Shown here piece by piece: positions 194 through 43,841 of a DNA stretch of 43,841 bases. Position numbers and translations under genes: made by a program. The notes beneath the pieces are model-generated. The model did no database searches. It saw only the letters and a program-made list of their open reading frames with translations, and had not been told where the DNA came from. How positions within the stretch are numbered: position 1 is the stretch's first letter; every line of letters starts with the position of its first letter. Location of the stretch: NCBI GenBank assembly GCA_030618315.1, contig JAUXDO010000001.1, positions 1-43,841 of the forward strand. The letters are read 5' to 3'. This stretch comes from Candidatus Peregrinibacteria bacterium (GTDB lineage: Bacteria; Patescibacteriota; Gracilibacteria; UM-FILTER-43-11).

Positions 194-220
194 ATTTAAG
201 ATTGAACTTAAACTTCCCTA

Positions 221-310
221 TTTCTGATTTCGGATTTCAGATTTGTGATTCCTATTCCAGATTCTGAAATGTAACATGTTAATCTGAAATCAGAATTCAG
301 AAATCAGAAA
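221..310. repeat. Heptad-periodic palindrome, 'tgaaatc/cagaaat' family copy 1
   Basis: Arms 221-248 (tttctgatttcggatttcagatttgtga) and 283-310 (tctgaaatcagaattcagaaatcagaaa) are imperfectly complementary. It lies between the convergent sortase and ftsA genes. The arms resemble those at 31411-31583 and 36567-36704. Confidence 0.75.
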
Positions 311-313
311 TAA

Positions 314-4268: not shown

Positions 4269-4286
4269 TGTTTTACCTTACTTGTT

Positions 4287-4361
4287 AATAGCGGTTAGCG
4301 ACTAGCGGATAGCGGTTAGCTTATAAGGCTATTTTCTAGTCGCTAGCTACTAACCGCTATT
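4287..4361. repeat. 'tagcgg' palindromic element, copy 1 (75 nt)
   Basis: Left arm aatagcggttagcgactagcggatagcggttagc (7-nt tagcgNN units). Right arm ctagtcgctagctactaaccgctatt. It aligns end to end with 7381-7455, with most positions identical. Confidence 0.8.
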
Positions 4362-4366
4362 AAGTA

Positions 4367-7348: not shown

Positions 7349-7455
7349 ATTAAAGATTGAAGATTAAAGATTGAAGATTAAATAGCGGTTAGCGACTAGC
7401 GACTAGCAGTTAGCTTATGAAGCTATTCACTAATCGATAACTACTAATCGCTATT
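7349..7455. repeat. Heptamer array (gattgaa/gattaaa, 7349-7380) plus 'tagcgg' palindromic element copy 2 (7381-7455)
   Basis: 7381-7455, aatagcggttagcgactagcgactagcagttagc...actaatcgataactactaatcgctatt, is colinear with 4287-4361. The array matches the 1581-1617 unit. Confidence 0.8.
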
Positions 7456-7471
7456 TATTAGTTTTCAATTT

Positions 7472-8038: not shown

Positions 8039-8042
8039 ATTT

Positions 8043-8113
8043 GTAATTAGTAATTAGTAAATAGTAATTTAAACTGTAAAACTGTAATAATTACAAATTA
8101 CCAATTACTAATT
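8043..8113. repeat. Heptad-periodic palindrome (gtaatta units) overlapping the dnaX stop
   Basis: Left arm 8043-8070, gtaattagtaattagtaaatagtaattt. Right arm up to 8113, ...ttaccaattactaatt. The dnaX TAG stop is at 8108-8110, inside the right arm. Confidence 0.7.
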
Positions 8114-9598
8114 TCCAAAAACCTCTTTAGCCATTTCAGCCATATTGGAATCGTTAACATTTTCATCTTTTTTTAGAACTGTGTTTAGGGAAACTTTTTT
8201 CGTTTCGAGTTTTAAATTAATCTTATTACCAAGAACTGTTTCAAATGCCTTCTGCACAACAGCCTGATTTGAAGAATTGGCAATCTTATCCATAAATGTA
8301 CTTGAATTGAAAGAGAGATACAGCGTTCCATTTTCAAATTTAACAGGTTCGCTATCTACAAAAGACATTCGAACAAATGGTGTTTCAATATTATCGATTA
8401 TCCTCTGCCAATTCTCTTTAAATTCGTTTAAATCAAGTTCTGAAATTTCTTTGTTTTCAGCGCTCTCATCAGATTCAGAAGATTTGTCCGGTTTGATTTC
8501 AACTGCTTCAGGCTTCTGAACATTTTTTTCAACCTTTACCTGTTTTGCTTCAGTCTTTACTTCTGGCGACTCTATATTCCCTGATGTTCCAAAATTACAT
8601 GCTTTAACAACTGCAATCTCCAGTGCCAGTTGCGGAATTATTGCCTGAGTTATTTTTATCTTTGCATCTGAGAATATTTCAATAAATCCTATAACAGTCT
8701 GAACTTCTTCACTATTTGTTAGATTTATAAGCATCTGCTCTCTTAAATATGCAATTATATCTGTTGTAAATTGCTGAAGGCTATGCCCCTGGGCGTTAAT
8801 TTGATTAAGGATTTCAATTGCCTTTAGTGGCTTTCTTTGGAGTAGGCACTGGAAGAATTGTTCAACGTGAATCTGCCCCCCAAGGCCTAAGTTTTCAGCG
8901 ACTTTCTCATACTGTACAACTCCGTCCATTGTCATTTGCTCAAATAGACCTATTGCATCTCTTAGTCCCCCATTGGCGATTTTTCCTATCAGATTAAGTG
9001 CCTCTACATCTGCTTTTACATTTTCCTGCTCTGCAATTTCTTCCAGTCTTTTTACAATAGTGCTCTGATTGATGCGTTTGAAATTAAACTGCTGACACCT
9101 CGAAATAATCGTCTCAGGAATTTTGTGTACTTCTGTTGTAGCTAATATGAAATATGCGTGTGATGGCGGTTCTTCAAGTGTTTTTAAAAGTGCATTAAAC
9201 GCTTCTTTTGTCAGCATATGCACTTCATCAATGATGTAGACTTTAGATCTAGCCTGAGATGGCGCGAATACTATTTTTTCTCTGAGTTCCCGTATTTCAT
9301 CAATTCCTCTGTTACTTGCGGCATCAATTTCAATCAAATCAACAAGACGACCATTATTTATACCATCACAAATCTCACATTCATTACATGGTTCAAAATC
9401 ACTGGTCAGATTTGTACAATTTAGTGCTTTGGCAACAATGCGGGCTAATGATGTTTTACCCGTACCCCTTGGGCCGGAAAAAAGATAGGCATGCGTCATT
9501 GCATTATGCTTAAGAGCGTTCTGCAAAGTTGTAATCGCATGATCCTGGCCTACGAGGTTTTTAAAGTTAAATGGTCTGTATTTTAGATAAAGTGACAT
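8108..9598 (-). CDS. dnaX: DNA polymerase III subunit gamma/tau
   Basis: Walker A GPRGTGKTS, a zinc module CNECEICDG, the DEVHML box and SRCQ sensor motif. Confidence 0.9.
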   Translation of the reverse strand: MSLYLKYRPFNFKNLVGQDHAITTLQNALKHNAMTHAYLFSGPRGTGKTSLARIVAKALNCTNLTSDFEPCNECEICDGINNGRLVDLIEIDAASNRGIDEIRELREKIVFAPSQARSKVYIIDEVHMLTKEAFNALLKTLEEPPSHAYFILATTEVHKIPETIISRCQQFNFKRINQSTIVKRLEEIAEQENVKADVEALNLIGKIANGGLRDAIGLFEQMTMDGVVQYEKVAENLGLGGQIHVEQFFQCLLQRKPLKAIEILNQINAQGHSLQQFTTDIIAYLREQMLINLTNSEEVQTVIGFIEIFSDAKIKITQAIIPQLALEIAVVKACNFGTSGNIESPEVKTEAKQVKVEKNVQKPEAVEIKPDKSSESDESAENKEISELDLNEFKENWQRIIDNIETPFVRMSFVDSEPVKFENGTLYLSFNSSTFMDKIANSSNQAVVQKAFETVLGNKINLKLETKKVSLNTVLKKDENVNDSNMAEMAKEVFGN

Positions 9599-9771: not shown

Positions 9772-10335
9772 ATGCAAAACTTTTTATACGTACTCTTATT
9801 AATTCCTGCTTTTCTCTTATCCGCCTGTAATACTGATGTAGACAGTTCACCGCTTACAATGGGTAGCGCTGATGCACCAGTTTTAATCGAGGAGTTTTCG
9901 GATGTTGAATGTCCGGCCTGCGCAGTAATAGGTCCAGAACTTGAAAGACTAGCTAAAGCAAATTCAGATATTGTCAGACTTGAATTTTATCATTTCCCCC
10001 TTTCATATCATAAGTTCGCATTTACTGGAGCTGAGGCTGTTGAATGTGCTGAAGATCAGGATAAAGGCTGGGAATATTTAGCTAAATTATTTAAAAATCA
10101 AAAATTGATTAATGATGACTTTTTCTATTCACTAGCCGAAACTCTTAATTTAAACAAATCTAAATTTATATCCTGCTTAGACAATCACGAGAAAAAAGAT
10201 AAGATCAGAATTCATCAGGCAGAAGGAAGAAGTCGATCTTTACCAGGTACCCCAACCATATATATCAATGGACAGTATGTTAAATGGGCTGGTTATGACC
10301 AAATTGATGCTTATATTAAAGGGCTGATTAATTAG
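9772..10335 (+). CDS. DsbA-family thiol:disulfide oxidoreductase, probable lipoprotein
   Basis: Lipobox-like LLSAC after a hydrophobic N-terminus. CPAC active site within a thioredoxin-like context, and a cis-Pro region GTPTIYING. Confidence 0.7.
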   Translation: MQNFLYVLLLIPAFLLSACNTDVDSSPLTMGSADAPVLIEEFSDVECPACAVIGPELERLAKANSDIVRLEFYHFPLSYHKFAFTGAEAVECAEDQDKGWEYLAKLFKNQKLINDDFFYSLAETLNLNKSKFISCLDNHEKKDKIRIHQAEGRSRSLPGTPTIYINGQYVKWAGYDQIDAYIKGLIN

Positions 10336-10413
10336 TTGTCTGAACTGTGATTCATTATAAACCCCCTAGCCTATATAGAATTCCTCAGCCTAATCTCGCA
10401 TTTGCACCCTTGT

Positions 10414-10622
10414 CAATCCCTATATAAAACCCCCTTCACCCCTTTATCCGTATAACCAATTCATTATCCCCCTTATCAGGGGGAGGGGTTAAGTAGTTAG
10501 TTCTATAAATAGGGATTTTACCTAGCATTTAGCATTAATCATCAATTACAGAATACTTCCCCCTGATAAGGGGGATAATAAATAAATGATTGAATGACAA
10601 AGGGGGTTTTATATAGGGATTG
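10414..10622. repeat. 209-nt inverted-repeat element with nested G5/C5 hairpins
   Basis: Outer 21 nt caatccctatataaaaccccc (10414-10434) is perfectly complementary to 10602-10622. Inner 21 nt attatcccccttatcaggggg (10463-10483) is perfectly complementary to 10559-10579. Each inner part is itself a hairpin (10468-10483, 10559-10574). Confidence 0.8.
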
Positions 10623-10635
10623 AAAAATCACAAAT

Positions 10636-12395: not shown

Positions 12396-12586
12396 TTCCA
12401 AATCTCAAATCCTAAATTCCAAACAACTTCAATATTCAAATTTCAATAAACAAACCGTACCTCTGAATGTGCGAATAATTATTCGCACATTCAGAGGATG
12501 TAATTAATTATATATTCCGTATTACATTTGAATTTTGAATATTGTACTTTGGATTTTGTTTGGAATTTAGGATTTGAGATTTGGAA
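12396..12586. repeat. MITE-like nested palindrome: 31-bp perfect terminal inverted repeats around a perfect 38-nt palindrome
   Basis: 12396-12426 ttccaaatctcaaatcctaaattccaaacaa is the exact reverse complement of 12556-12586. The core 12460-12497 cctctgaatgtgcgaataattattcgcacattcagagg is a perfect palindrome. The arms are heptad periodic. Confidence 0.85.
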
Positions 12587-23447: not shown

Positions 23448-23670
23448 CTTCAACCGAGAGGACCGGGTAATCAATACTAATTATTGATGGGCACAATTAT
23501 GGATTGGCGGGCGTATAGCTTAGCCTTGACCGATTGTGATCTGAAACCGGACGACCTCTCTGGAATTGGCACTTTGTGTCGATAGGTGAGCTGAGGATCG
23601 GTGGGCGTATAGCCCGACCGTGACAGACGCAAAAGGGGGAAAAGTTGTTCTGCAACATCCCCTATTTTTT
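23448..23670 (+). ncRNA. Candidate structured small RNA of unknown class (about 220 nt)
   Basis: A GC-rich island in an AT-rich gap, bracketed by the promoter at 23413-23441 and a terminator at 23634-23670. Stems: gagagg/cctctc (23456-61 / 23555-60), ccgg/ccgg (23463-66 / 23547-50), tcaata/tattga. Two similar modules contain gggcgtatagc (23509-19, 23603-13). Confidence 0.45.
23634..23670 (+). terminator. Rho-independent terminator
   Basis: The stem aggggg...ccccct encloses gttg-ttctg-caac and is followed by ATTTTTT (23664-23670). Confidence 0.6.
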
Positions 23671-23680
23671 ATATGTGGAT

Positions 23681-23709
23681 TTGACTTAAAAACGAATCTT
23701 TGCGAAAAT
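23681..23709 (+). promoter_or_regulatory. Putative hrcA promoter
   Basis: TTGACT (23681-86), a 17-nt spacer, then GAAAAT (23704-09). Confidence 0.35.
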
Positions 23710-23712
23710 CAA

Positions 23713-23739
23713 TTAGCACTCACCCACTTAATCTGCTAA
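23713..23739 (+). promoter_or_regulatory. CIRCE-like operator with a degenerate right half
   Basis: TTAGCACTC-acccactta-ATCTGCTAA compared with the consensus TTAGCACTC-N9-GAGTGCTAA. The left half is perfect and the right half matches 6 of 9. It abuts the hrcA ATG. Confidence 0.45.
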
Positions 23740-24446
23740 TGGATTTACGAAAGCAACAAATACTGGAGGCGATAATCGATTCTTTTATAAAGAATGCATT
23801 GCCTGTTGGCTCAAAATATATTCGTGAGTCGTATGATTTCGGTGTATCCCCTGCTACGATAAGGAATGAGATGGCTGCGCTGGAAGCTGAGGGATATATT
23901 GCTCAGCCACATACATCTGCCGGGCGCGTCCCGACTAACAGAGCTTATCGAATGCTTGTTGACCAGATGCAGATTCAGAATCAATTAATGAATCGTGTTA
24001 AACGTGATATGGAAACGGTTCGTAAACAATATTATTTAAAAAAAACTAAAGAAAAGCTATTTGATATTGTCGCAATACTCGCAGGAGTTACAAATAACAT
24101 CAGTTTTGCTACCTTGCCGGATAAAGACAGGGTATTTTATATCGGAATAAGCAATCTGCTAAAAAAACCTGAGTTTATTATGGAGCCGGAAAAGGCTTCT
24201 CAGGTAATTGAGATTCTTGAAAATGACTTATATGGCATTTTATCCGATTTGGAGTTAACGGATGAAGGTACTATTTATATCGGTGAAGAAAATATACTTC
24301 CTGAGTTCCAAAGCTGTAGTCTGCTTGCAATCCCCTATCAGTTAAACGGATTCAGAGGCATTATCGGGGTTCTTGGCTCTACGAGAATGGATTATCCGTA
24401 TAATCTTGCTGCGATTAGGACTGCTATTCAACTATTATCGGATTGA
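23739..24446 (+). CDS. hrcA: Heat-inducible transcription repressor HrcA (short form)
   Basis: MDLRKQQILEAIIDSFIKNALPVGSK...ATIRNEMAALEAEGYI..PHTSAGRVPT... and a C-terminal GVLGSTRMDYPYN. I prefer the ATG at 23739 over the track's TTG at 23700. Confidence 0.85.
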   Translation: MDLRKQQILEAIIDSFIKNALPVGSKYIRESYDFGVSPATIRNEMAALEAEGYIAQPHTSAGRVPTNRAYRMLVDQMQIQNQLMNRVKRDMETVRKQYYLKKTKEKLFDIVAILAGVTNNISFATLPDKDRVFYIGISNLLKKPEFIMEPEKASQVIEILENDLYGILSDLELTDEGTIYIGEENILPEFQSCSLLAIPYQLNGFRGIIGVLGSTRMDYPYNLAAIRTAIQLLSD

Positions 24447-24448
24447 GG

Positions 24449-24568
24449 AACGGATAGGTAAACGGATAGGTAAACGGATAGGTAAACGAATTGAAGAACG
24501 TATAGGAAAACGGATAGAAAAACAATTCGTCCAACAATACGTCCATCAATTAGTCCAACAATACGAAT
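24449..24568. repeat. Ten tandem 12-nt units filling the hrcA-ruvC gap
   Basis: aacggataggta occurs 3 times perfectly (24449-24484). Then come aacgaattgaag, aacgtataggaa and aacggatagaaa. The unit type then switches to aacaattcgtcc, aacaatacgtcc, atcaattagtcc and aacaatacgaat. The array ends 1 nt before the ruvC ATG. Confidence 0.8.
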
Positions 24569-24569
24569 T

Positions 24570-25076
24570 ATGAATTATTATTTAGGAATAGATCCAGGGC
24601 TCTCCGAAGTCGGTTTCGGCATTATTAAGTCTGATGGTAATGAGACTGAATTTGTTGACTGTGGGATTATTAAAACTACTCCTAAAAATACTTTTGCCGA
24701 GAGATTATCGATTATTAAAAAGGATATGGAGGAAATTCTTGCTATGCATAAATACGAAGCTGTTGGAATTGAGGAATTGTTTTTCGCAAAAAATGTTACC
24801 AATGCTATCAAGGTTGCTCATGCACGAGGAATAATCGTGCAGACGGTTCACGATTTACGATTTCCGATTTACGAGTTTACTCCATTGCAGGTCAAAAATA
24901 ATATCTGCGGTTATGGCGGAGCGGATAAATTGATGGTGCAGGAGATGGTTAAACGGCTCCTTAATCTAAAAGTCCTGCCAAAGCCTCATGATGCGGCGGA
25001 TGCGCTTGCGATTGCGATGATAGCTGCCCAAACTCAAAACTCAAAACTCAAAACTCTAAACCCAAAATATACCTAA
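24570..25076 (+). CDS. ruvC: Holliday junction resolvase RuvC
   Basis: LGIDPG at the N-terminus, EELFF, and the HDAADALAIA catalytic C-terminal motif. The last roughly 14 aa are encoded by a repeat arm. Confidence 0.9.
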   Translation: MNYYLGIDPGLSEVGFGIIKSDGNETEFVDCGIIKTTPKNTFAERLSIIKKDMEEILAMHKYEAVGIEELFFAKNVTNAIKVAHARGIIVQTVHDLRFPIYEFTPLQVKNNICGYGGADKLMVQEMVKRLLNLKVLPKPHDAADALAIAMIAAQTQNSKLKTLNPKYT

Positions 25077-25125
25077 ATATTTACCATTCAACAAATTTGA
25101 GTTTTGAATTTTGAGTTTTGAGTTT
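25030..25125 (+). terminator. Heptad-periodic hairpin (caaaact units); the 5' arm lies inside the ruvC coding sequence
   Basis: 25030-25056 aaactcaaaactcaaaactcaaaactc pairs with 25096-25125 tttgagttttgaattttgagttttgagttt (1 mismatch). The loop contains the ruvC stop (25074-25076). Confidence 0.7.
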
Positions 25126-25165
25126 ATTTTGCTATTATTTGAATTGAAACAAATAAAAACTTTTT

Positions 25166-26641
25166 ATGCGTAAATTCCTTGCTTTCCTTCTCGCGATAAT
25201 ACTTGCAATAGTTTTAGTAACTGGCGCACTTTTCTATAAGCAGGAGGGGTCTTTTAATGATATCAGTATTGATTCTGTAATTCATCTTTGGTCTGACGTT
25301 ATTTCTATTGATGAAGGTATCGTAGTTTATGATGGTGATGGTGAGCCTGAAATAATTGTAGTTGAGCCAGAGCCTGAACAGAATCTGACTTATGATGAAC
25401 GCATTGAAAAAGGTGATTATTATTTTGAACGAGGCTTTTTAACCTTCGCTTCGAATGAATATGTAAAAGCGGTAAATCTTGAACCTGATAGAGTCGAACC
25501 TTATTCAAAACTGCTGAAAACAAATTATGAACTCGGTGATTATGTAAAAGCACAGAAAAATGCCGAGATTATTCTGCAAAAAAATCCTAATGACATAAAT
25601 ACACTATTTGATCTGGCTTTGATTTACATAAAACAAAGTGATTTTGAAAACGCATCATTTGTTTTGGATAAATTAGCTCTTGCTGAAAATCCGGATCCAC
25701 GAATCACCTATTACCGTGCTTTATTAGAAATTGTTAATGAGAACCACGACGAAGGTAAGAAGCTCCTAAAGGAAGCTTTAAGAGATAGTACTGACCCTGA
25801 ATTGGATGATGATATTTCCAGTCTTTTATCCTCATATACCGAATTTGAATTTGCCAAGGCAGCGGATGAACTTTATTTATCTGAACTGCTTTCGAGGTCA
25901 TTTAATAAACTTGGTGAATATGAAATGGCAATTCATAAGCTAAAAGGAATACTAAAGACCAGAAATGATCTTAGAGATGCCTGGATACTGTTCGGTTTCG
26001 CATATTTGAATCTTGAAGAATATTATTTTGCGCAGTTAGCATTTGAACGAGCTTACGAACTTGATTCCGAATGGCCTACCACTCAATATTTTTTAGGAGT
26101 TACACTTGCTGAATTGGGCACATTGGATGATGCGATTTTATACCTGAATTATGCACTTAATAACAATTTTCAGCCGGAAGTAGTTGTTCATCAAAAACTC
26201 GCCGATTTATATATGGATTCTGGTGATTATGCAAAGTCTGTTGAATCGTATGAGAAAGTACTATCGATTAATAAAGATGATATCAATTCTTTTGTCAGAC
26301 CTATTTGGATTTATATTGATTATTTAAATGAGCCAAAAAAGGCACTGAATATCGCTGAAGTTGCAAATGCCACATTCCCTGAATCTGCAATGAGTTACAA
26401 CTTACTTGGCTGGAGTCAGATCGGAACAAATGACTATACTGAGGCTGAAAAGAATTTGAAAAAAGCCATTGAGCTTGAACCGGGTCTGCCTGCCGCACAT
26501 TATAATCTTGCAAGACTTTATGAAGTGCAGAATAGAAATGAGTTGGCACTTGAGGAGTATCAAAAAGCTTATGAGCTGGATACCAATGGAAGTATTGGAA
26601 ATCTGGCTGCTCAGGCTTATAACGAATTGATGGTCAAATAG
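25166..26641 (+). CDS. TPR-repeat protein with N-terminal membrane anchor
   Basis: N-terminal hydrophobic helix and multiple 34-aa TPR-like repeats (e.g. AHYNLARLYEVQNRNELALEEYQKAYELD). Confidence 0.75.
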   Translation: MRKFLAFLLAIILAIVLVTGALFYKQEGSFNDISIDSVIHLWSDVISIDEGIVVYDGDGEPEIIVVEPEPEQNLTYDERIEKGDYYFERGFLTFASNEYVKAVNLEPDRVEPYSKLLKTNYELGDYVKAQKNAEIILQKNPNDINTLFDLALIYIKQSDFENASFVLDKLALAENPDPRITYYRALLEIVNENHDEGKKLLKEALRDSTDPELDDDISSLLSSYTEFEFAKAADELYLSELLSRSFNKLGEYEMAIHKLKGILKTRNDLRDAWILFGFAYLNLEEYYFAQLAFERAYELDSEWPTTQYFLGVTLAELGTLDDAILYLNYALNNNFQPEVVVHQKLADLYMDSGDYAKSVESYEKVLSINKDDINSFVRPIWIYIDYLNEPKKALNIAEVANATFPESAMSYNLLGWSQIGTNDYTEAEKNLKKAIELEPGLPAAHYNLARLYEVQNRNELALEEYQKAYELDTNGSIGNLAAQAYNELMVK

Positions 26642-26643
26642 AA

Positions 26644-35504: not shown

Positions 35505-35579
35505 GCGGGTATCGTATAATGGCTATTACCACGGCCTTCCAAGCCGTTGATAGGGGTTCGATCCCCCTTACCCGCTCCA
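35505..35579 (+). tRNA. tRNA-Gly (anticodon UCC), CCA encoded
   Basis: Manual cloverleaf. Acceptor gcgggta/tacccgc, anticodon stem acggc/gccgt with loop cuUCCaa, T arm agggg-ttcgatc-cccct, discriminator U, then CCA. Confidence 0.85.
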
Positions 35580-36158: not shown

Positions 36159-36566
36159 ATGACCGCTGTTAAACCAAATCAAATTGAGAATAAACTTGTT
36201 GAGCTTATGGGGCTTAAAGACAAGCTTTTGGACTCAAAAGAAATGTTAAAATCATTTAAAATAAAGTCGGATAGGCTTAAGGATTTACAGACTGCCTACA
36301 AGGATCTTAGAGATCAGATTTCTGAAGAAAAGGATAAAATTGAGAATGAATTTTACGAGGATAAAGATTATGAAAAAGCAAAAAATGATGACTTAACTTA
36401 TAAGAATCAAATAAAGGAAAAAAGTTCAGAGCTTCGTGAGATCATGAAAGAGGTTGATATTGATAAACAACTTGCGACTTATGATTACAACATCAAAGGT
36501 GAAAAACTTAAGATGCAGGTCGAAAGAGTTGTGAAGGTTTATATTAATGGGAGAGAGGAGAAGTAA
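36159..36566 (+). CDS. Hypothetical coiled-coil protein
   Basis: 135 aa, K/E/D-rich with heptad-like composition and no recognised motif. Confidence 0.5.
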   Translation: MTAVKPNQIENKLVELMGLKDKLLDSKEMLKSFKIKSDRLKDLQTAYKDLRDQISEEKDKIENEFYEDKDYEKAKNDDLTYKNQIKEKSSELREIMKEVDIDKQLATYDYNIKGEKLKMQVERVVKVYINGREEK

Positions 36567-36704
36567 TTCAGATTTCGGATTTCTGATTTGTGAATCGATT
36601 TGAGATTTTTCATTTCGTATTTTTCGTATAATTAATACTGCTCACAAAATGCAACATCTAGAATAAAAAATATGAATCTGAAATCAGAAATCTGAAATCT
36701 GAAT
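36567..36704. repeat. 'tgaaatc' family element, copy 3 (138 nt)
   Basis: Arms ttcagatttcggatttctgatttgtgaatc (36567-36596) and gaatctgaaatcagaaatctgaaatctgaat (36674-36704) are complementary apart from a few mismatches. It fills the convergent gap exactly, from stop to near stop. Confidence 0.8.
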
Positions 36705-36710
36705 TGTACT

Positions 36711-39635: not shown

Positions 39636-42041
39636 TCAATTTGTGTTTTCAATAATCTTCTCCAAAAACTCCGTTGGATACAGCTGAGGTTTTTCTTCGA
39701 GTGCCTGATGATAAATTACAGTGGATGGCGTTAAACCAGGAGTAGTATTTGCTTCGATAATGATTAGCTCACCTGTTTTTATGTGCATAAAAGCATCTAT
39801 TCGGCAGTAACCCGAAAACCCCATGGCTTTTGCAACTTTTTCCACTCTCTCCATCGCCTTTTTAACAGCGGATGGCTTTACATAAGGGGTTGGAGGTGGA
39901 GTAATATTCACGCCAGTCCCCCCTTGAAACTTTTCTTCCAGACTTAGGATATTGCCAACTGCTACGGTTATACTTGGTGACATCGCTTTCATCTTACCTT
40001 TTCGTTCCAAAAGACCCATTGTTATTTCAATCCAATTATTCCTTGTTTGCCATTTGAGTTTATTTTTGATTACGCGGACTTTGTCGGTTGTAATAAATTG
40101 CTCAAACATTATGTTCTTCATTTTCTGATGAGGCATATCGATAATCCCATGTTGCTTTGTTAATTTTCCTTCAGGAATCATAGGAGACGCTTTTAGAGCG
40201 TATTTTAAATAAACCTCCAGATCTTTTGGTGTGTAAAGCCTTGCAATGCCCGAACTGCACCCATCATCAACGGGTTTTACGATTATTGTTCGGCTTTCAA
40301 GTTCTTGTGCCAATCCTCTCCAATACCTTTTGTAATCGACTGGTTTAAACTTTTTAAACTGAATCATTTTTTCCACTCTTTTGAACGCTGAGCTAATGCC
40401 TTCTTTTTTTAGATGCTTAATAGCTTCACCCGTTTTATATTTATCTATACCAAGTTTTGATGCTACTCCGCCAGAACCATTAAATGGAACTTTTGCTTTT
40501 TCCAGCATTTTCTGCAGAGTGCCGTCTTCCCCAATCCCGCCATGTAAACCAATAAATACATATTTAGATTTTTTGATGAAGTCTTTGAGTGTCATCTTTT
40601 CCGGGAAGAACCACGGTTCTGAAATATCACCTTCATCCGGACTTAATTTTTCAATTACGCGTTCTATTAAAGCTCGCAACCTATCTTCATCATCTTTTGC
40701 ATTAACACAATTTTTCATAATCTCTTCTACAGTATGATTCAATGTAAGAGAATACGGCAGATGCCAAACATTATGATTCATATCGAGCAGGTATGGTTCC
40801 GGTTTGTATTTATCTGAACGCTTGAGCTTGAGCCATACGTTTGTACCGGACATGACGGAAACTTGGCGCTCGGCTGTCTTGCCTCCGAAGAGGACGTTGA
40901 TTTGTGATTTGTGATTTTTGATTTGTGATTTCAAATTCTCAATTCTCAAATCACAATTCTCAAATTTTATACCGTATCGTCGACAGGCACTCTTCACAAT
41001 ATAAAGCAAAACGTCCCTATGGCTCATTCCTATTCTGGATGACTGCATAAAAAGAAAACTGTTTTGCTCCATTCCGCTTATCGGATTGAAGTCTGAAAAC
41101 CATAAATTTCCATCCGGCATCAACCACCCATCGAACCTTGCAAAGTTTCTCATTCCGAGAAGTTTAAATAATTGCTCTGACTGGATTTGAATCCTTCTGA
41201 TTACATCTTCAGAAAAACGCGGCGGACAGTGATATGTTACCTGTCTTGATGCTAAATATTTTTTTCTATAATCGAATATCTGATGGTCACTATAATCTAG
41301 CTCCATTTCTGTAGGAAGGACTGCTACCGGCATACCAAAGCGATTCTCTAATATGATTACAGTAAACTCAACCCCATTACAAAAAGGTTCAACAACTAAC
41401 CTTGTATCTACTCTTTTTGAGAAAAGATCATGAGCAACTTTTAGGGCCTCATCTACTGTTGAAACTGAACTTACTCCAATGCTTGAACCTCCTGTTGCAG
41501 GTTTCACTACTGCACGTTTGATTTTATGGTCCTTAAAAAACTTATTGATTATCTGTTTGTGATTTTTTAAATGACTTTTTAATAAAACAGATGGAAGAGT
41601 ATAGAATCCATTATCTCTTATAAACTCATTCGCATTAAATTTATCAAATGCCCGTTTACATGCGTCTTCCGGTGAGCCAATACATGGAATTTTGTATCTT
41701 TTAAGAATGCGCTGGATTTCCCCGTCCTCACCAAATGGGCCGTGCATTACAGGAAATGCAAGGTCGACTGTTTTGAGATATTTACCTAAGGCAGATTTGG
41801 ATAATGGCTTTCCTGATGAGTGTAATTTAAAATCAAAATCTGATGGAGTATTTGAATAAAGCTGGCTTCTGGAAATCAGATAGGCATTTTTTTTATGGTC
41901 GAAATAGATTGGAAGTATTTCTATCTCCTCTGAATGTAAGTGGTCGCAAACGGAGCGTGCGGAGTTGAGGGAGATACCTCTCTCCAATGATGGACCGCCA
42001 CACAACAAAGCAATTTTCAATTTACAATTTACAATTTTCAT
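39636..42041 (-). CDS. ddl: Tandem-fused D-alanine--D-alanine ligase-family protein (two complete ATP-grasp Ddl-like modules)
   Basis: Module 1: KIALLCGGPSLERGISLNSA..., VKPATGGSSIGV, ARFDGWL..DGNLWFSDFNPISGM. Module 2: INVLFGGKTAERQVSVMSG..., VKPVDDGCSSGI, CRIDAFM...ELIIIEANTTPGLTPSTV. They are joined by ENCDLRIENLKSQIKNHKSQ. Confidence 0.85.
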   Translation of the reverse strand: MKIVNCKLKIALLCGGPSLERGISLNSARSVCDHLHSEEIEILPIYFDHKKNAYLISRSQLYSNTPSDFDFKLHSSGKPLSKSALGKYLKTVDLAFPVMHGPFGEDGEIQRILKRYKIPCIGSPEDACKRAFDKFNANEFIRDNGFYTLPSVLLKSHLKNHKQIINKFFKDHKIKRAVVKPATGGSSIGVSSVSTVDEALKVAHDLFSKRVDTRLVVEPFCNGVEFTVIILENRFGMPVAVLPTEMELDYSDHQIFDYRKKYLASRQVTYHCPPRFSEDVIRRIQIQSEQLFKLLGMRNFARFDGWLMPDGNLWFSDFNPISGMEQNSFLFMQSSRIGMSHRDVLLYIVKSACRRYGIKFENCDLRIENLKSQIKNHKSQINVLFGGKTAERQVSVMSGTNVWLKLKRSDKYKPEPYLLDMNHNVWHLPYSLTLNHTVEEIMKNCVNAKDDEDRLRALIERVIEKLSPDEGDISEPWFFPEKMTLKDFIKKSKYVFIGLHGGIGEDGTLQKMLEKAKVPFNGSGGVASKLGIDKYKTGEAIKHLKKEGISSAFKRVEKMIQFKKFKPVDYKRYWRGLAQELESRTIIVKPVDDGCSSGIARLYTPKDLEVYLKYALKASPMIPEGKLTKQHGIIDMPHQKMKNIMFEQFITTDKVRVIKNKLKWQTRNNWIEITMGLLERKGKMKAMSPSITVAVGNILSLEEKFQGGTGVNITPPPTPYVKPSAVKKAMERVEKVAKAMGFSGYCRIDAFMHIKTGELIIIEANTTPGLTPSTVIYHQALEEKPQLYPTEFLEKIIENTN
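40897..40966. repeat. Heptamer arrays inside the Ddl-Ddl linker coding sequence
   Basis: gatttgt gatttgt gattttt gatttgt gatttca, followed by aattctc aattctc aaatcac aattctc aaatttt. Only ttgtgattt/aaatcacaa is truly complementary. Confidence 0.7.
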
Positions 42042-42133
42042 TTAACAAATGTAATTATTCGCAAGGATTGTACATTAAATTTTTGGCTTAAGCAAAGTGT
42101 TTTAAAATTTAAAATTGTAAATTGTAAATTTGT
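42011..42133. repeat. Heptad-periodic palindrome straddling the ddl start codon
   Basis: 42019-42038 aatttacaatttacaatttt is the exact reverse complement of 42111-42130 aaaattgtaaattgtaaatt (20 bp). The left arm encodes Ddl residues 2-8 (KIVNCKL). Confidence 0.8.
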
Positions 42134-42585: not shown

Positions 42586-43841
42586 ATGAAAATAAATCAA
42601 AAAATCTTCCGTGCATATGACATCAGAGGCACCTATCCCGACCAGCTTAATGCGGAGAGTGCTGAGTTGATTGGGAAGGGGTTTGGGACCTATTTATATA
42701 GGAAATTCAAAACTCAAAATTCAAAACTCAAAGTGGTTGTGGGGATGGATTGCCGTACTCATTCTCTTGAGCTTCATAAGGCTTTTGTAAATGGACTACT
42801 ATCAACTGGATGCGATGTGACAAATATTGACAAATGCCCGTCTCCTTATCTCTATTTTGTGAATACTGAGGGTAAATTTGATGGAGGTTGTGTAATTACT
42901 GCCAGTCATAATCCTAAGGAATATAATGGGTTTAAGTTGATAACTCATAATGCGCATGCGGTTTTTGGTGATGAATTGCAGAAGGTCTATCAGATTATTG
43001 AGAAAGGTGAATTTGCGACTGGAAATGGGAAAATGATCAGTGCTGATTATTATGATTTTTATCTACAAAAGATTAAAAGTATCTTCACTTTCTCTCGTCC
43101 TCTAAAATTAGTTATTGATACTGGTAACGGTATTGCCGGTATTATGTATCCCAAAATCCTAAAGGAGTTGGGGCATGATGTCGTCGAATTATATACGGAA
43201 TGTGACGGTACTTTTCCAAATCATGAAGCTGATCCGATCGTTGAGGAAAATGTAGAGGATTTGAAGAAAATGGTCGTAGATGAAAATGCGGATCTTGGCA
43301 TTGCATTTGATGGCGATGGTGACAGATGCGGTGTTATTACGGAAAAAGGTGAGTTTGTTAATGCTGACAAATTGTTAATGCTTCTCACTAAAGATGTTTT
43401 AAGCAGACATCCTGATAAATCAGTTGTATTCACTGTTTCTAACTCTCAATCCCTATTCGATCTTGTGAAGGAGTGGGGCGGAAAACCTGTGATGTGTGAG
43501 GTGGGTCATTCTTATGTTGAGGATGCTATGACTGCGCATGATGCCATTTTAGGAGGTGAACAGTCAGGTCATTTCTTTTTGCCCGAGGATTATTACAAAT
43601 ATGACGACGCATTAATCACGTCATGTCGTGTTCTCAAAATACTGGCTGATTCAGATAAAACTATTTCAGAGCTATTTGAGCAATTTCCTAAAACATATGA
43701 TCAGCCGGAGATGAGACCGTTTTGCCCTGATGAAAAAAAGTTTGAAATACTGGAACAGGTCAAAAAATACTTTAAAGACAAATATCCAAATACAACTATC
43801 GACGGAATACGTATGGATTTTGGGAATGGCGGTTGGGCTGG
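42586..43841 (+). CDS. Phosphomannomutase/phosphoglucomutase-family protein (3' end outside window)
   Basis: MKINQKIFRAYDIRG..., the active-site loop TASHNPKEYNGFK and the metal loop FDGDGDR. The frame is open to the window end. Confidence 0.9.
   Translation, partial: MKINQKIFRAYDIRGTYPDQLNAESAELIGKGFGTYLYRKFKTQNSKLKVVVGMDCRTHSLELHKAFVNGLLSTGCDVTNIDKCPSPYLYFVNTEGKFDGGCVITASHNPKEYNGFKLITHNAHAVFGDELQKVYQIIEKGEFATGNGKMISADYYDFYLQKIKSIFTFSRPLKLVIDTGNGIAGIMYPKILKELGHDVVELYTECDGTFPNHEADPIVEENVEDLKKMVVDENADLGIAFDGDGDRCGVITEKGEFVNADKLLMLLTKDVLSRHPDKSVVFTVSNSQSLFDLVKEWGGKPVMCEVGHSYVEDAMTAHDAILGGEQSGHFFLPEDYYKYDDALITSCRVLKILADSDKTISELFEQFPKTYDQPEMRPFCPDEKKFEILEQVKKYFKDKYPNTTIDGIRMDFGNGGWA
42705..42733. 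repeat. 'caaaact' heptamer repeat embedded in frame in the mutase gene
   Basis: 42708-42732 caaaactcaaaattcaaaactcaaa is the exact reverse complement of 25096-25120. It encodes KTQNSKLK. Confidence 0.85.

What the first reader, a model, noticed from the sequence alone, without database searches (positions are those of the whole stretch)
25030..25125. Repeat arms are translated: the same 'caaaact' repeat encodes TQNSKLK in RuvC and in the phosphohexomutase
The 5' arm of the hairpin after ruvC lies inside the gene and encodes its last roughly 14 residues (QTQNSKLKTLNPKYT). These follow the conserved HDAADALAIA motif, where RuvC proteins normally end soon after. In the mutase gene, 42708-42732 is a 25-nt exact reverse complement of the other arm (25096-25120). 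There it encodes KTQNSKLK in frame, between the conserved FRAYDIRG... and VVVGMD segments. Two unrelated proteins therefore share a peptide only because they share repeat DNA. This recalls Rickettsia palindromic elements, which are known to insert in frame into ORFs. I cannot tell whether the direction is repeat into gene or gene tail into terminator.
Basis: partly seen in the sequence, partly recalled or inferred. Interest (0 to 1): 0.7.

Follow-up and report, generated by a model that had tools for sequence, protein, structure and literature searches.

The report
Seven-base tandem repeats translated into protein
Two unrelated enzymes of an uncultured Peregrinibacteria bacterium share the peptide TQNSKLK because both genes run through short tandem arrays of the same 7-base unit (CAAAACT); this is a local case of a known class of bacterial simple-sequence repeat, not a mobile element.

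Summary
ruvC (24570-25076) ends inside a (CAAAACT)n array. An inverted array follows at 25096-25125. A 25-nt exact reverse complement of that arm lies in frame in the phosphomannomutase gene (42708-42732). Both proteins contain TQNSKLK.

The shared DNA is a heptanucleotide tandem repeat, not a dispersed palindromic element. The window holds 17-25 period-7 arrays and none at periods 4-6, 8-11 or 13. That is about 200 times the density in 1.2 Mb of control loci. Most arrays are intergenic, sit against start or stop codons, and often form inverted pairs.

Because 7 and 3 share no factor, an array encodes the same cyclic heptapeptide in all three frames. The opposite strand of CAAAACT carries TGA, so a shared peptide is automatic.

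Orthologues show in-situ evolution. The ruvC tail and array are shared with close relatives, and the window changed a TAA stop to AAA, adding 8 residues. The mutase loop is rebuilt in each close relative by a different heptamer.

The same 25-mer occurs in more than 120 metagenome contigs from other phyla, including inside eight other enzyme families.

Verdict: a real feature and a new member of a known kind, namely heptanucleotide repeats as in cyanobacteria, Beggiatoaceae and Xanthomonas. The RPE analogy fails.

The parts
24570..25076 (+). ruvC ORF (168 aa). The RuvC fold ends near residue 152. The last helix is 140-157 and residues 158-168 are coil, with pLDDT below 50 for 163-168.
25030..25067 (+). 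5' hairpin arm. This is a (CAAAACT)n heptamer array (5.4 copies, degenerating at its 3' end) that encodes RuvC residues 154-164 (QTQNSKLKTLN).
25050..25052 (+). Codon AAA (K161). The closest relatives L002 and L004 have the stop codon TAA at the aligned codon. The change makes the unit identical to its neighbours and extends the ORF by 8 codons (KTLNPKYT).
   Evidence: ungapped codon comparison
25074..25076 (+). ruvC stop codon TAA, lying in the 42-nt hairpin loop.
25096..25125 (+). 3' hairpin arm, an (AGTTTTG/AATTTTG)n array of 4.3 copies. This orientation has a stop codon in every frame (cyclic peptide SFEF*VL).
42586..43841 (+). Phosphomannomutase/phosphoglucomutase ORF (PGM_PMM domains I-III), cut off by the end of the window.
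42703..42732 (+). Solitary in-frame array (AAATTCA AAACTCA)x2.1 encoding K40-K49 (KFKTQNSKLK). It replaces the ancestral 6-residue loop between helix 23-41 and strand 49-54. Bases 42708-42732 are the reverse complement of 25096-25120.
24850..24880 (+). A second translated array inside ruvC, (ACGATTT)x4.3. It encodes DLRFPIYEF, close to its cyclic peptide DLRFTIY, with no length change against orthologues.
40898..40965 (-). Two adjacent, partly complementary heptamer arrays translated as the linker (ENCDLRIENLKSQIKNHKSQI) between the two D-Ala-D-Ala ligase modules. The orthologue in L010 has exactly 6 more units (14 aa).
42011..42130 (-). Heptamer hairpin at the start of the ddl-ddl gene. One arm (42101-42130) lies in the 5' leader. 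The other (42011-42037) forms codons 2-10 (KIVNCKLKI), which includes 4 residues absent from orthologues.
219..312 (.). Example of the same system elsewhere: a (GATTTCN)n / (NGAAATC)n inverted pair directly after a stop codon. Pairs of the same family lie at 31411-31583 and 36565-36705. Other heptamer pairs lie at 4285-4363, 7379-7457, 8040-8118 and 12396-12586.

Best explanation
**What it is**
The shared DNA is a heptanucleotide simple-sequence repeat, meaning head-to-tail copies of a 7-nt unit, here CAAAACT/CAAAATT. This Peregrinibacteria (CPR) lineage is crowded with such arrays. They have many different units, run 4-5 copies each, sit mostly between genes directly against start and stop codons, and are often arranged as inverted pairs that can form long A/U-rich hairpins.

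**How arrays come to be translated**
Where an array forms over, or drifts into, a tolerant stretch of coding sequence, it is simply translated. Tolerant stretches seen here are a C-terminal tail, a surface loop, an interdomain linker and an N-terminus.

**Why the peptide is shared (shown)**
Because 7 and 3 share no factor, an array gives one and the same cyclic heptapeptide in all three reading frames; for CAAAACT it is QNSKLKT. The complementary strand AGTTTTG contains TGA in every frame, so only one orientation can survive inside an ORF. Two genes that contain the same unit therefore share a peptide automatically.

**The two genes (shown)**
- In ruvC the array overlies an ancestral tail. A single TAA-to-AAA change made the unit identical to its neighbours, removed the stop and added 8 residues.
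- In the mutase the array has overwritten a 6-residue loop.

**Inferred steps**
- The arrays arise and change by replication slippage and homogenisation seeded on local sequence, such as the ancestral codons AAA CTC GAA in the mutase.
- The inverted pairs are kept because the hairpin, whether a 3'-end stem-loop or a 5' leader structure, matters for the transcript.
- The translated peptides themselves have no function beyond being tolerated.
For: **Tandem structure and specificity for period 7**
- Tandem Repeats Finder lists dozens of period-7 and period-14 arrays.
- My own scan finds 17 arrays at period 7. It finds 8 at period 14 and 3 at period 21 (multiples of 7), 4 at period 12, and none at any other period from 4 to 20. 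Shuffled sequence gives about 0.

**Density**
- The window has 3.9 arrays per 10 kb. Loci from close relatives range from 0 to 5.2 per 10 kb (2.3-5.2 in L004, L006, L007 and L008). 1.24 Mb of non-CPR control loci have 0.02 per 10 kb.

**Position**
- 19 of 25 arrays are intergenic although 82% of the window is coding (P = 5e-10).
- Seven genes have an array at the stop codon and seven at the start codon.
- Ten heptamer inverted pairs are present.

**Cyclic peptides**
- CAAAACT gives QNSKLKT and AGTTTTG gives SFEF*VL.
- TGA is used as a stop in 5 of 35 ORFs, so the standard code applies.

**ruvC orthologues**
- L002 (88% identity) and L004 (84%) have an orthologous array of the same length but more degenerate, plus an inverted 3' arm.
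- Both have TAA where the window has AAA.
- Their hairpins still fold, at -17.4 and -29.3 kcal/mol. The arm units have changed on both sides: CAAAACU/AGUUUUG in the window and CUAAACU/AGUUUAG in L004.

**Mutase orthologues**
- The loop is lengthened mainly in the closest clade, with a few scattered cases, among 120 orthologues.
- In each relative examined it equals the cyclic peptide of a different heptamer:
  - GAAACTC gives EDRNSKLE in L009.
  - (GAAGACC)3 gives EDRRPKT in L010.
  - (CAGGACA)4 gives QDTGHRTQDT in L092.

**Frame-preserving copy change**
- The ddl linker differs by exactly 6 units (42 nt, 14 aa) between the window and L010.

**Structural tolerance**
- The mutase array maps to a helix end and loop with a dip in confidence.
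- The RuvC tail is coil with low pLDDT.

**Generality**
- The same 25-mer lies in frame inside eight other enzyme families in metagenome contigs: DEAD helicase, class I aminoacyl-tRNA synthetase, thioredoxin-reductase-type oxidoreductase, amidohydrolase, NRPS, pseudouridine synthase, topoisomerase I and a radical-SAM/TRAM enzyme.

**Literature**
- An excess of heptamer repeats in bacteria, and the proposal that polymerase slippage causes it, are reviewed in PMC4679880 and PMC4692102.
Against: - Slippage alone does not explain why complementary arrays sit on both sides of a spacer.
- Slippage alone also does not explain why the identical A/T-rich 25-mer occurs in genomes of 33-67% G+C from at least four other phyla: Prevotella/Leyella, Capnocytophaga, Roseiflexaceae, cyanobacteria and Thiodiazotropha. 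In those contigs 75% of all heptamer arrays belong to this one unit family. This points to selection for the sequence, or to transfer, on top of slippage.
- The ruvC 3' arm and the mutase array share 26 nt including the same C/T variant pattern. That could reflect ectopic conversion rather than independent in-situ growth.
- No expression or read-level data were available. Translation of the tail, the role of the hairpin and copy-number instability are all inferred.
Confidence: 0.8

Rival explanations
1. A small mobile palindromic element, like a Rickettsia palindromic element or a MITE, inserted in frame into ruvC and into the mutase gene.
For: - A strong hairpin lies at the end of ruvC.
- There is a 25-26 nt exact identity between two loci 17.6 kb apart.
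- The mutase segment is lineage-specific.
- The same 25-mer is spread over many unrelated genomes.
Against: - The mutase copy is one solitary array with no inverted partner.
- The shared sequence is nothing but heptamer units.
- Three hairpins of the GATTTCN family share only their arrays. Their loops are 30-36, 115-118 and 77-86 nt long and unrelated.
- Orthologous positions hold different heptamers and copy numbers.
- The ruvC array aligns without gaps, codon for codon, with the tails of relatives. No insertion is visible there.
- The net length change in the mutase is only 2 aa.
Confidence: 0.04
2. The arrays are functional cis-elements selected for their sequence. Possible roles are binding sites for a single-strand nucleic-acid-binding protein, unstructured G-poor leaders or Rho-loading sites, or the arms of regulatory or terminator hairpins. 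They would be kept similar between loci by selection, conversion or transfer. Translation in ruvC and the mutase would be a side effect of their position. This overlaps with the best explanation and differs on origin and maintenance.
For: - The arrays hug start and stop codons.
- Hairpin pairing is kept in L002 and L004 while the arm units change on both sides.
- Heptamer arms flank canonical G+C hairpins at 12396-12586 and 31411-31583.
- The identical 25-mer is present in genomes of 33-67% G+C. In Prevotella-type contigs it lies 0-15 nt upstream of ATG, alternating with short G+C palindromes in 44-48 nt modules.
- PMC4679880 proposed a post-transcriptional regulator for TAACTGA repeats in the same position.
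Against: - Units in this window are very diverse: 18 canonical units among 25 arrays. That argues against one sequence-specific reader.
- No canonical terminator pattern was found, and promoter-like matches are at chance level.
- No candidate factor was identified, and there are no expression data.
Confidence: 0.3
3. The peptides are ancestral protein features and the DNA identity is coincidental.
For: RuvC relatives without an array still show T, S, L and K at aligned tail positions: RTFGSTLKP and RSSKF. Several orthologue tails end in ...SKL...SKLKN or ...SKF.
Against: - For the mutase, most of the 120 orthologues have an unrelated 6-residue loop.
- The DNA is 86-100% heptamer-periodic at both sites.
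- The extra 8 RuvC residues exist only in the window.
- A 25-nt exact match cannot come from codon choice alone.
Confidence: 0.05
4. The arrays are contingency loci, that is, phase-variable repeats. A change of one unit (7 nt) would shift the frame and switch the mutase or the ddl fusion off, or remodel the RuvC C-terminus, as a population-level strategy.
For: - The unit length is not a multiple of 3.
- Copy number differs between relatives.
- Orthologue loops are hypervariable.
Against: - There are only about 4 copies, often imperfect, so slippage rates should be low.
- The genes are housekeeping genes.
- All observed differences between orthologues preserve the frame.
- No read-level variation could be examined.
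Confidence: 0.05

Closest known systems
Heptanucleotide long simple-sequence repeats in bacteria, including the STRR repeats of heterocystous cyanobacteria (Calothrix, Nostoc). Sources are the accounts in PMC4692102 and PMC4679880, plus my own recollection of Mazel et al. 1990 and Mrazek et al. 2007, which I did not read here.
   Same: - Tandem 7-nt units with a few to a few dozen copies.
- A strong excess of period 7 over neighbouring periods.
- Intergenic preference.
- The same unit at many loci.
- Length and sequence variation between close relatives.
   Different: - The host is a CPR/Peregrinibacteria genome, for which I found no report.
- Many unit families coexist, rather than one to three.
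- Units are A/T-rich.
- Inverted pairing of arrays is the rule rather than the exception.
TAACTGA direct repeats of marine Beggiatoaceae, also found in cyanobacteria and Bacteroidetes (MacGregor 2015, PMC4679880).
   Same: - Heptamer arrays of 2-6 copies a few nucleotides upstream of start codons.
- Arrays overlapping stop codons, and about 25 ORFs that contain or overlap arrays.
- Strand-dependent stop codons that limit where arrays can sit in ORFs.
- A puzzling cross-phylum distribution.
   Different: - A different unit.
- There, one unit dominates and inverted pairs are nearly absent (one indirect repeat in 170 sets).
- Here, units are diverse and hairpin pairs are common.
- TAACTGA carries stops in its forward orientation, whereas CAAAACT is open in all three frames.
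GGGAATC repeats of Xanthomonas and GGGGA(C/T)T repeats of Nostoc PCC 7120 (Rehm et al. 2015, PMC4692102).
   Same: - Heptamer arrays, mostly of about 4 units.
- Intergenic location and conserved position between related species, with variable length and sequence.
- Some arrays arranged as inverted repeats able to form stem-loops.
   Different: Those are G-rich and discussed as G-quadruplex formers. The arrays here are A/T-rich, cannot form G4 structures, and reach into coding sequence.
This rests on my own knowledge of Ogata et al. 2000, not read here.
   Same: Repeat DNA translated in frame inside conserved proteins at structurally tolerant, surface positions, so that unrelated proteins share a peptide.
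   Different: - RPEs are dispersed elements of about 100-150 bp with a conserved sequence containing both palindrome arms, inserted as a unit.
- Here there is only a tandem array of about 30 nt, solitary in the mutase, evolving in situ, with a different unit in each orthologue.

Membership tests
Heptanucleotide simple-sequence repeats (LSSR/STRR-type) | Head-to-tail copies of a 7-nt unit, at least 3 copies | tested here: met
   Tandem Repeats Finder gives 25030-25067 x5.4, 25096-25125 x4.3 and 42703-42732 x4.3. My own scan agrees.
Heptanucleotide simple-sequence repeats (LSSR/STRR-type) | Genome-level excess of period 7 over other periods and over chance | tested here: met
   There are 17 arrays at period 7, and 0 at periods 4-6, 8-11 and 13; shuffles give about 0. 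Density is 3.9 per 10 kb against 0.02 per 10 kb in 1.24 Mb of control loci. Only 44 kb of this genome was available.
Heptanucleotide simple-sequence repeats (LSSR/STRR-type) | Preference for intergenic DNA near gene boundaries | tested here: met
   19 of 25 arrays are intergenic with 82% of the window coding, P = 5e-10. Arrays lie at 7 stop and 7 start codons.
Heptanucleotide simple-sequence repeats (LSSR/STRR-type) | Orthologous arrays differ in copy number and unit sequence between related genomes | tested here: met
   Seen at the ruvC tail, the mutase loop and the ddl linker, which has about 5 versus 11 units.
Heptanucleotide simple-sequence repeats (LSSR/STRR-type) | Generated by replication slippage | not testable with these tools
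   Inferred only. It needs read-level length polymorphism or mutation-accumulation data.
Rickettsia palindromic element-like in-frame mobile elements | A dispersed element with conserved sequence that contains both palindrome arms and is inserted as a unit | tested here: not met
   The mutase array has no inverted partner. Hairpins of one unit family share only the arrays.
Rickettsia palindromic element-like in-frame mobile elements | Presence/absence polymorphism: orthologues lack the whole segment (an empty site) | tested here: not met
   The ruvC tails align without gaps. The mutase loop is replaced by different heptamers, with a net gain of 2 aa in the window.
Rickettsia palindromic element-like in-frame mobile elements | Located at surface-exposed, structurally tolerant positions | tested here: met
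   Mutase residues K40-K49 map to the end of helix 23-41 and the loop 42-48, in a block with pLDDT 79. RuvC residues 158-168 are coil, with pLDDT below 50 for 163-168.
Intrinsic (Rho-independent) terminator | G+C-rich stem, short loop, and a U-tract directly after the stem | tested here: inconclusive
   The consensus scan finds none in 23500-26800. The hairpin is stable (-35.7 kcal/mol) but A/U-rich with a 42-nt loop, and is followed by AUUUUGCUAUUAUUUG.
Phase-variable contingency locus | Length variants of the repeat within a population that switch the reading frame | not testable with these tools
   No reads were available. All differences between genomes preserve the frame.

The most novel reading that the evidence does not exclude
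CAAAAYT arrays, and heptamer arrays generally, may not be passive slippage products. They could be a cross-phylum, sequence-specific system.
- The identical A/T-rich 25-mer sits in Peregrinibacteria, Prevotella/Leyella, Capnocytophaga and Roseiflexaceae (67% G+C), and arrays of the same CAAAACT unit occur in cyanobacteria and Thiodiazotropha. It often lies directly upstream of start codons, in modules with small G+C hairpins, or in frame inside conserved enzymes.
- This would fit an unrecognised trans-acting factor that reads 7-nt registers on RNA or single-stranded DNA, or a mechanism that writes or transfers such arrays between loci and genomes.
- On that reading, the hairpins at gene ends would be modular regulatory devices, and the hypervariable protein loops would be their collateral.
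Probability: 0.2. Interest if true: 0.7.

Novelty: new member of a known kind. Interest (0 to 1): 0.4.

Why it matters
**For annotation.** In heptamer-rich genomes, gene ends and starts are unstable. A single base change inside an array moved the ruvC stop by 8 codons. Arrays that are open in all frames also inflate ORF calls: the database holds dozens of 30-74 aa 'proteins' that are nothing but QNSKLKT repeats.

**For protein evolution.** This is a simple rule-based way to spot repeat-derived segments, because a peptide with a 7-residue period corresponds to a DNA repeat with a 7-nt period. It shows that one surface loop can be rebuilt repeatedly from different repeats.

**For CPR biology.** The finding adds a genome-wide, lineage-specific repeat class concentrated at gene boundaries, where it could affect transcript ends and translation starts.

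**The open question.** The cross-phylum recurrence of the same unit is the part worth following up.

Tried and rejected
1. **An extra heptamer causing a frameshift.** I first thought the longer RuvC tail came from one extra heptamer (+7 nt). I rejected this because the window, L002 and L004 align codon for codon without gaps. The difference is AAA versus TAA at one codon.

2. **Concerted evolution between the two loci.** I compared the ruvC arms and mutase arrays within a genome and between genomes, using the window and the pair L004/L008 from the same sample. All pairings were about 28/32 identical, so the test does not discriminate. The finding that the 25-mer is common in unrelated genomes further weakens the identity as evidence of intragenomic copying.

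3. **Consensus folding of the three ruvC hairpins.** The result was uninformative because the longer L004 loop broke the alignment. I folded each sequence singly instead.

4. **Terminator, promoter and RNA-family scans.**
   - No terminator pattern was found, and promoter-like hits were at chance level.
   - Rfam returned only one tRNA, at 35505-35576.

5. **Peptide search with (TQNSKLK)6.** It returned only short ORFs made wholly of the repeat, from cyanobacteria, Thiodiazotropha and others. It did not find enzymes with embedded copies. Those were found through the DNA scan instead.

6. **The genome-contig scan with RuvC.** It returned mostly Firmicutes, so it served as a control set rather than as a sample of relatives.

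7. **Single-linkage clustering of units.** At one mismatch it chains nearly all A/T-rich units together, so it is not meaningful.

8. **Literature.** No paper in the library links CPR/Patescibacteria with heptamer or simple-sequence repeats. None contains the 14-mers of this array.
Full report
**1. The observation**

The ruvC ORF runs from 24570 to 25076 and encodes 168 aa. Pfam RuvC covers residues 5-150.

Tandem Repeats Finder reports a period-7 array at 25030-25067 (5.4 copies, 90% matches, unit AAACTCA). It reports the complementary array at 25096-25125 (4.3 copies). The first array encodes residues 154-164. The protein ends ...HDAADALAIAMIAAQTQNSKLKTLNPKYT, and the stop codon lies in the loop.

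As RNA the region folds into a stem of about 26 bp around a 42-nt loop. The energy is -35.7 kcal/mol, with z = -9.6.

The PMM/PGM gene starts at 42586 and runs off the window. Bases 42708-42732 are the exact reverse complement of 25096-25120, and the match extends one base further. They are read in frame as KTQNSKLK, residues 42-49. TQNSKLK is the longest peptide shared by the two proteins.

A 14-mer of two units matches 12 times with up to 2 mismatches, against 0.94 expected. An independent assembly of the same run is identical over 5.4 kb.

**2. What the shared DNA is**

It is a tandem repeat of a 7-nt unit, and it is not alone. With one scoring rule applied to every period, the window has 17 arrays at period 7. 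It has 8 at period 14 and 3 at period 21 (multiples of 7), 4 at period 12, and none at any other period from 4 to 20. Shuffled sequence gives essentially none.

At a looser threshold there are 25 arrays with 18 different canonical units, such as GATTTCN, AGATTGA, AATTACN, TGATTTG and CAAAAYT.

Nineteen of the 25 are intergenic although 82% of the window is coding (P = 5e-10). Seven genes have an array directly at the stop codon and seven directly at the start codon.

Ten loci are inverted pairs of complementary arrays: 219-312, 4285-4363, 7379-7457, 8040-8118, 12396-12586, 25006-25149, 31411-31583, 36565-36705, 40900-40965 and 42012-42130. Several fold far better than shuffles.

The organism is a Candidatus Peregrinibacteria (CPR) bacterium, judging by the names attached to RuvC and mutase homologues. 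Loci from close relatives range from 0 to 5.2 arrays per 10 kb (2.3-5.2 in L004, L006, L007 and L008) and a more distant Peregrinibacteria genome has 0.5-0.9. By contrast, 1.24 Mb of non-CPR loci fetched with the same RuvC query have 0.02.

**3. Why the two proteins share a peptide**

Since 7 is congruent to 1 modulo 3, shifting the reading frame by one base is the same as moving one unit along the array. A heptamer array therefore encodes one cyclic heptapeptide whatever the frame. (CAAAACT)n gives QNSKLKT, and the variant CAAAATT changes only a synonymous Asn codon in this register.

The opposite strand (AGTTTTG)n reads SFEF*VL, with TGA in every frame. TGA is a stop in this genome, used by 5 of 35 ORFs. 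Only one orientation can therefore exist inside an ORF, and any two ORFs containing it must share the peptide.

Unit families recur in the window. The GATTTCN family supplies 6 of the 25 arrays and CAAAAYT supplies 4-5. At least five arrays are translated. Some pair of proteins sharing a heptapeptide is therefore expected rather than surprising. This last step is my inference.

**4. ruvC: which came first**

Most orthologues are 157 aa. The closest ones (79-88% identity) are 160-162 aa, with tails such as AQAQNSKL, SQTLSSNI, SRTFGSTLKP and SRVYDSKLKN.

L002 (88%) and L004 (84%) carry an array of the same length at the same place, more degenerate, with an inverted 3' arm. Their codons align with the window without gaps. 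Both have TAA where the window has AAA (25050-25052), and the next three codons (ACT CTA AAC) are identical in L004. The window lineage therefore lost the stop by a T-to-A change that made the unit a perfect copy of its neighbours. It now reads 8 codons further (KTLNPKYT). My first idea, an extra unit causing a frameshift, is wrong.

Relatives without an array, L012 (80%) and L011 (76%), still have tails of similar length with T, S, L and K at aligned positions. The tail thus existed before the array, and the array formed over it.

The hairpin persists in L002 and L004 with changed units on both arms: CUAAACU with AGUUUAG in L004, against CAAAACU with AGUUUUG in the window. That fits either selection on pairing or copying from one arm to the other.

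In the AlphaFold model (pLDDT 91.8) the last helix is 140-157, and residues 158-168 are coil with low confidence.

**5. The mutase loop**

Most of 120 orthologues (typically 459-460 aa) read GTYL-RRK-LDLEAP-KVVVG. The closest clade, plus a few scattered orthologues, has longer, variable loops.

At the DNA level each close relative examined carries a different heptamer array:
- the window: [gaaattc][aaaactc][aaaattc][aaaactc];
- L009 (92%): [gaaactc][gaagatc][gaaattc][gaaactc], read as EDRNSKLE;
- L008 (88%): the same array as the window, with 3 differences in 33 nt, plus 30 more nt;
- L010: (GAAGACC)3, read as EDRRPKT;
- L092: (CAGGACA)4, read as QDTGHRTQDT.

L094, which has no array, has AAA CTT GAT TTA GAG GCG CCA. 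The arrays in the window, L009, L008 and L010 begin at AGG AAA CTC (G/A)AA, that is, at the ancestral Lys-Leu-Asp/Glu codons, which already contain GAA...GAA seven bases apart. This points to seeding in place. That step is inference.

The window's loop is a replacement of 6 residues by 8, not an insertion of an element. Against the Pseudomonas aeruginosa PMM/PGM structure it is 5 residues longer. In the model (pLDDT 90) it is the end of helix 23-41 plus loop 42-48, before strand 49-54, with a local dip in confidence. There is no inverted partner nearby.

**6. Other translated arrays in the window**

- ruvC 24850-24880 (ACGATTT x4.3) encodes DLRFPIYEF. This is close to the cyclic peptide DLRFTIY and shows no length change against orthologues.
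- The linker between the two D-Ala-D-Ala ligase modules (40898-40965) is two partly complementary arrays read as ENCDLRIENLKSQIKNHKSQI. L010 has exactly six more units (14 aa). L006 has a 16-nt G+C-rich repeat instead.
- Codons 2-10 of that same gene are one arm of a hairpin whose other arm lies in the 5' leader. Four of those residues are absent from orthologues.

**7. Not a mobile palindromic element**

The three GATTTCN hairpins share only their arrays. Their loops are 30-36, 115-118 and 77-86 nt long and unrelated, and one contains an ordinary G+C hairpin. Together with sections 4 and 5, this fails the defining features of RPE-like or MITE-like elements.

**8. Beyond this genome**

The 80 fetched loci (575 kb, G+C 0.33-0.67) have 4.1 heptamer arrays per 10 kb, and 75% of those arrays belong to the CAAAACT/CAAAATT family.

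Exact protein look-ups name Leyella (Prevotella) stercorea, Prevotella sp., Capnocytophaga gingivalis and a Roseiflexaceae bacterium. The peptide search adds cyanobacteria and Candidatus Thiodiazotropha.

In the Prevotella-type contigs the arrays alternate with short G+C palindromes in modules of 44-48 nt. They often end 0-15 nt before an ATG.

In at least eight loci the 25-mer lies deep inside a conserved enzyme. The families are DEAD helicase, class I aminoacyl-tRNA synthetase, thioredoxin-reductase-type oxidoreductase, amidohydrolase, NRPS, pseudouridine synthase, topoisomerase I and a radical-SAM/TRAM enzyme. Each gives QNSK(L/F)K(T/I) peptides.

The identity between the ruvC arm and the mutase array is weak evidence for copying within this genome.

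**9. Comparison with what is known**

An excess of heptamer repeats in bacteria, and the idea that about 7 nt matches the stretch held by the polymerase and so favours slippage, are summarised in PMC4679880 and PMC4692102.
- TAACTGA repeats in Beggiatoaceae sit just upstream of start codons, overlap stop codons, occur in about 25 ORFs, and show an unexplained distribution across sulfur oxidisers, cyanobacteria and Bacteroidetes (PMC4679880).
- GGGAATC repeats in Xanthomonas keep their position but vary in length between species, and sometimes form inverted pairs (PMC4692102).

This case shares all of those properties. It differs in host (CPR), in the diversity of units, in the frequency of hairpin pairs, and in a unit that is open in all three frames. 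I found no paper linking CPR with such repeats, nor any paper containing this array's sequence.

**10. Verdict**

The best explanation is in-situ evolution of heptanucleotide simple-sequence repeats at tolerant coding positions, in a lineage that is full of them (confidence 0.8 for what it is; the slippage origin and the hairpin function are inferred).

It is a new member of a known kind, with interest 0.4. The part that could be more than ordinary is the cross-phylum recurrence of the same unit at gene boundaries. Slippage alone does not explain that.

Noticed in passing
window 28445-28725: A G+C-rich insert of about 260 nt lies between a dUTPase-like ORF and rplA. It has a 39-nt unit (TTGAGTACAAACGTAGGGCTACCTTCGGCGTGGGGCTGT, x2.5) with complementary copies about 150 nt away. 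It folds into one long palindrome (-113 kcal/mol, z = -7.3). The orthologous spacer in L004 is only 18 nt. It is unlike the A/T-rich heptamer arrays and looks more like a true inserted palindromic element.
   Followed up: partly
window 24449-24562: Two 12-nt tandem arrays (AACGGATAGGTA x5.8 and AACAATTCGTCC x3.5) fill the hrcA-ruvC spacer. Relatives L002 and L004 have related 12-periodic 'atcaatccgaaa' arrays at the same place. Period 12 is the only repeat period present other than 7 and its multiples.
   Followed up: no
window 12396-12586 and 31411-31583: Heptamer arms flank ordinary G+C hairpins: cctctgaatgtgcgaataattattcgcacattcagagg at about 12455-12492, and cctgcctgccggcaggcagg at about 31445-31465. 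It looks as if the arrays extend the stems of existing terminator-like hairpins.
   Followed up: partly
L163 2650-2835 and 4599-4753; also L113, L122, L129: In Prevotella/Leyella-type gut contigs, CAAAAYT arrays alternate with short G+C palindromes in higher-order tandem modules of 44-48 nt (x3.5). These lie immediately upstream of genes. I found no description of this in the paper library.
   Followed up: partly
L006 5167-5228: In a close relative the ddl-ddl linker carries a perfect 16-nt G+C-rich tandem repeat (CCGCTTCGCTGTGGCG x3.9, 100% matches) where the window has heptamer arrays. The linker accepts repeats of other periods too.
   Followed up: no
L022 9869-9991: A Parcubacteria genome (GW2011_GWA2_38_13) has an inverted heptamer pair (AAAGTTC x4.7 / TTAACTT x5) directly upstream of its ruvC. 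Heptamer hairpins therefore occur in other CPR lineages as well.
   Followed up: no
L097 (Roseiflexaceae, 67% G+C), helicase ORF residues about 380-401: A DEAD/DEAH helicase carries (CGACCAA)n followed by (CAAAAYT)n in frame (RPTTNDQLQGGETQNSKFKTQNS). The TNDQ-type peptide also appears in the mutase loops of two Peregrinibacteria orthologues (P0131, P0136). Other unit families may therefore also recur across phyla.
   Followed up: no
window 10410-10626: Nested inverted repeats containing GGGGG/CCCCC runs: 10410-10436 pairs with 10600-10626 (96% complementary), and 10459-10498 pairs with 10544-10583. They lie in the spacer after the ORF 9772-10335 and are not heptamer-based.
   Followed up: no
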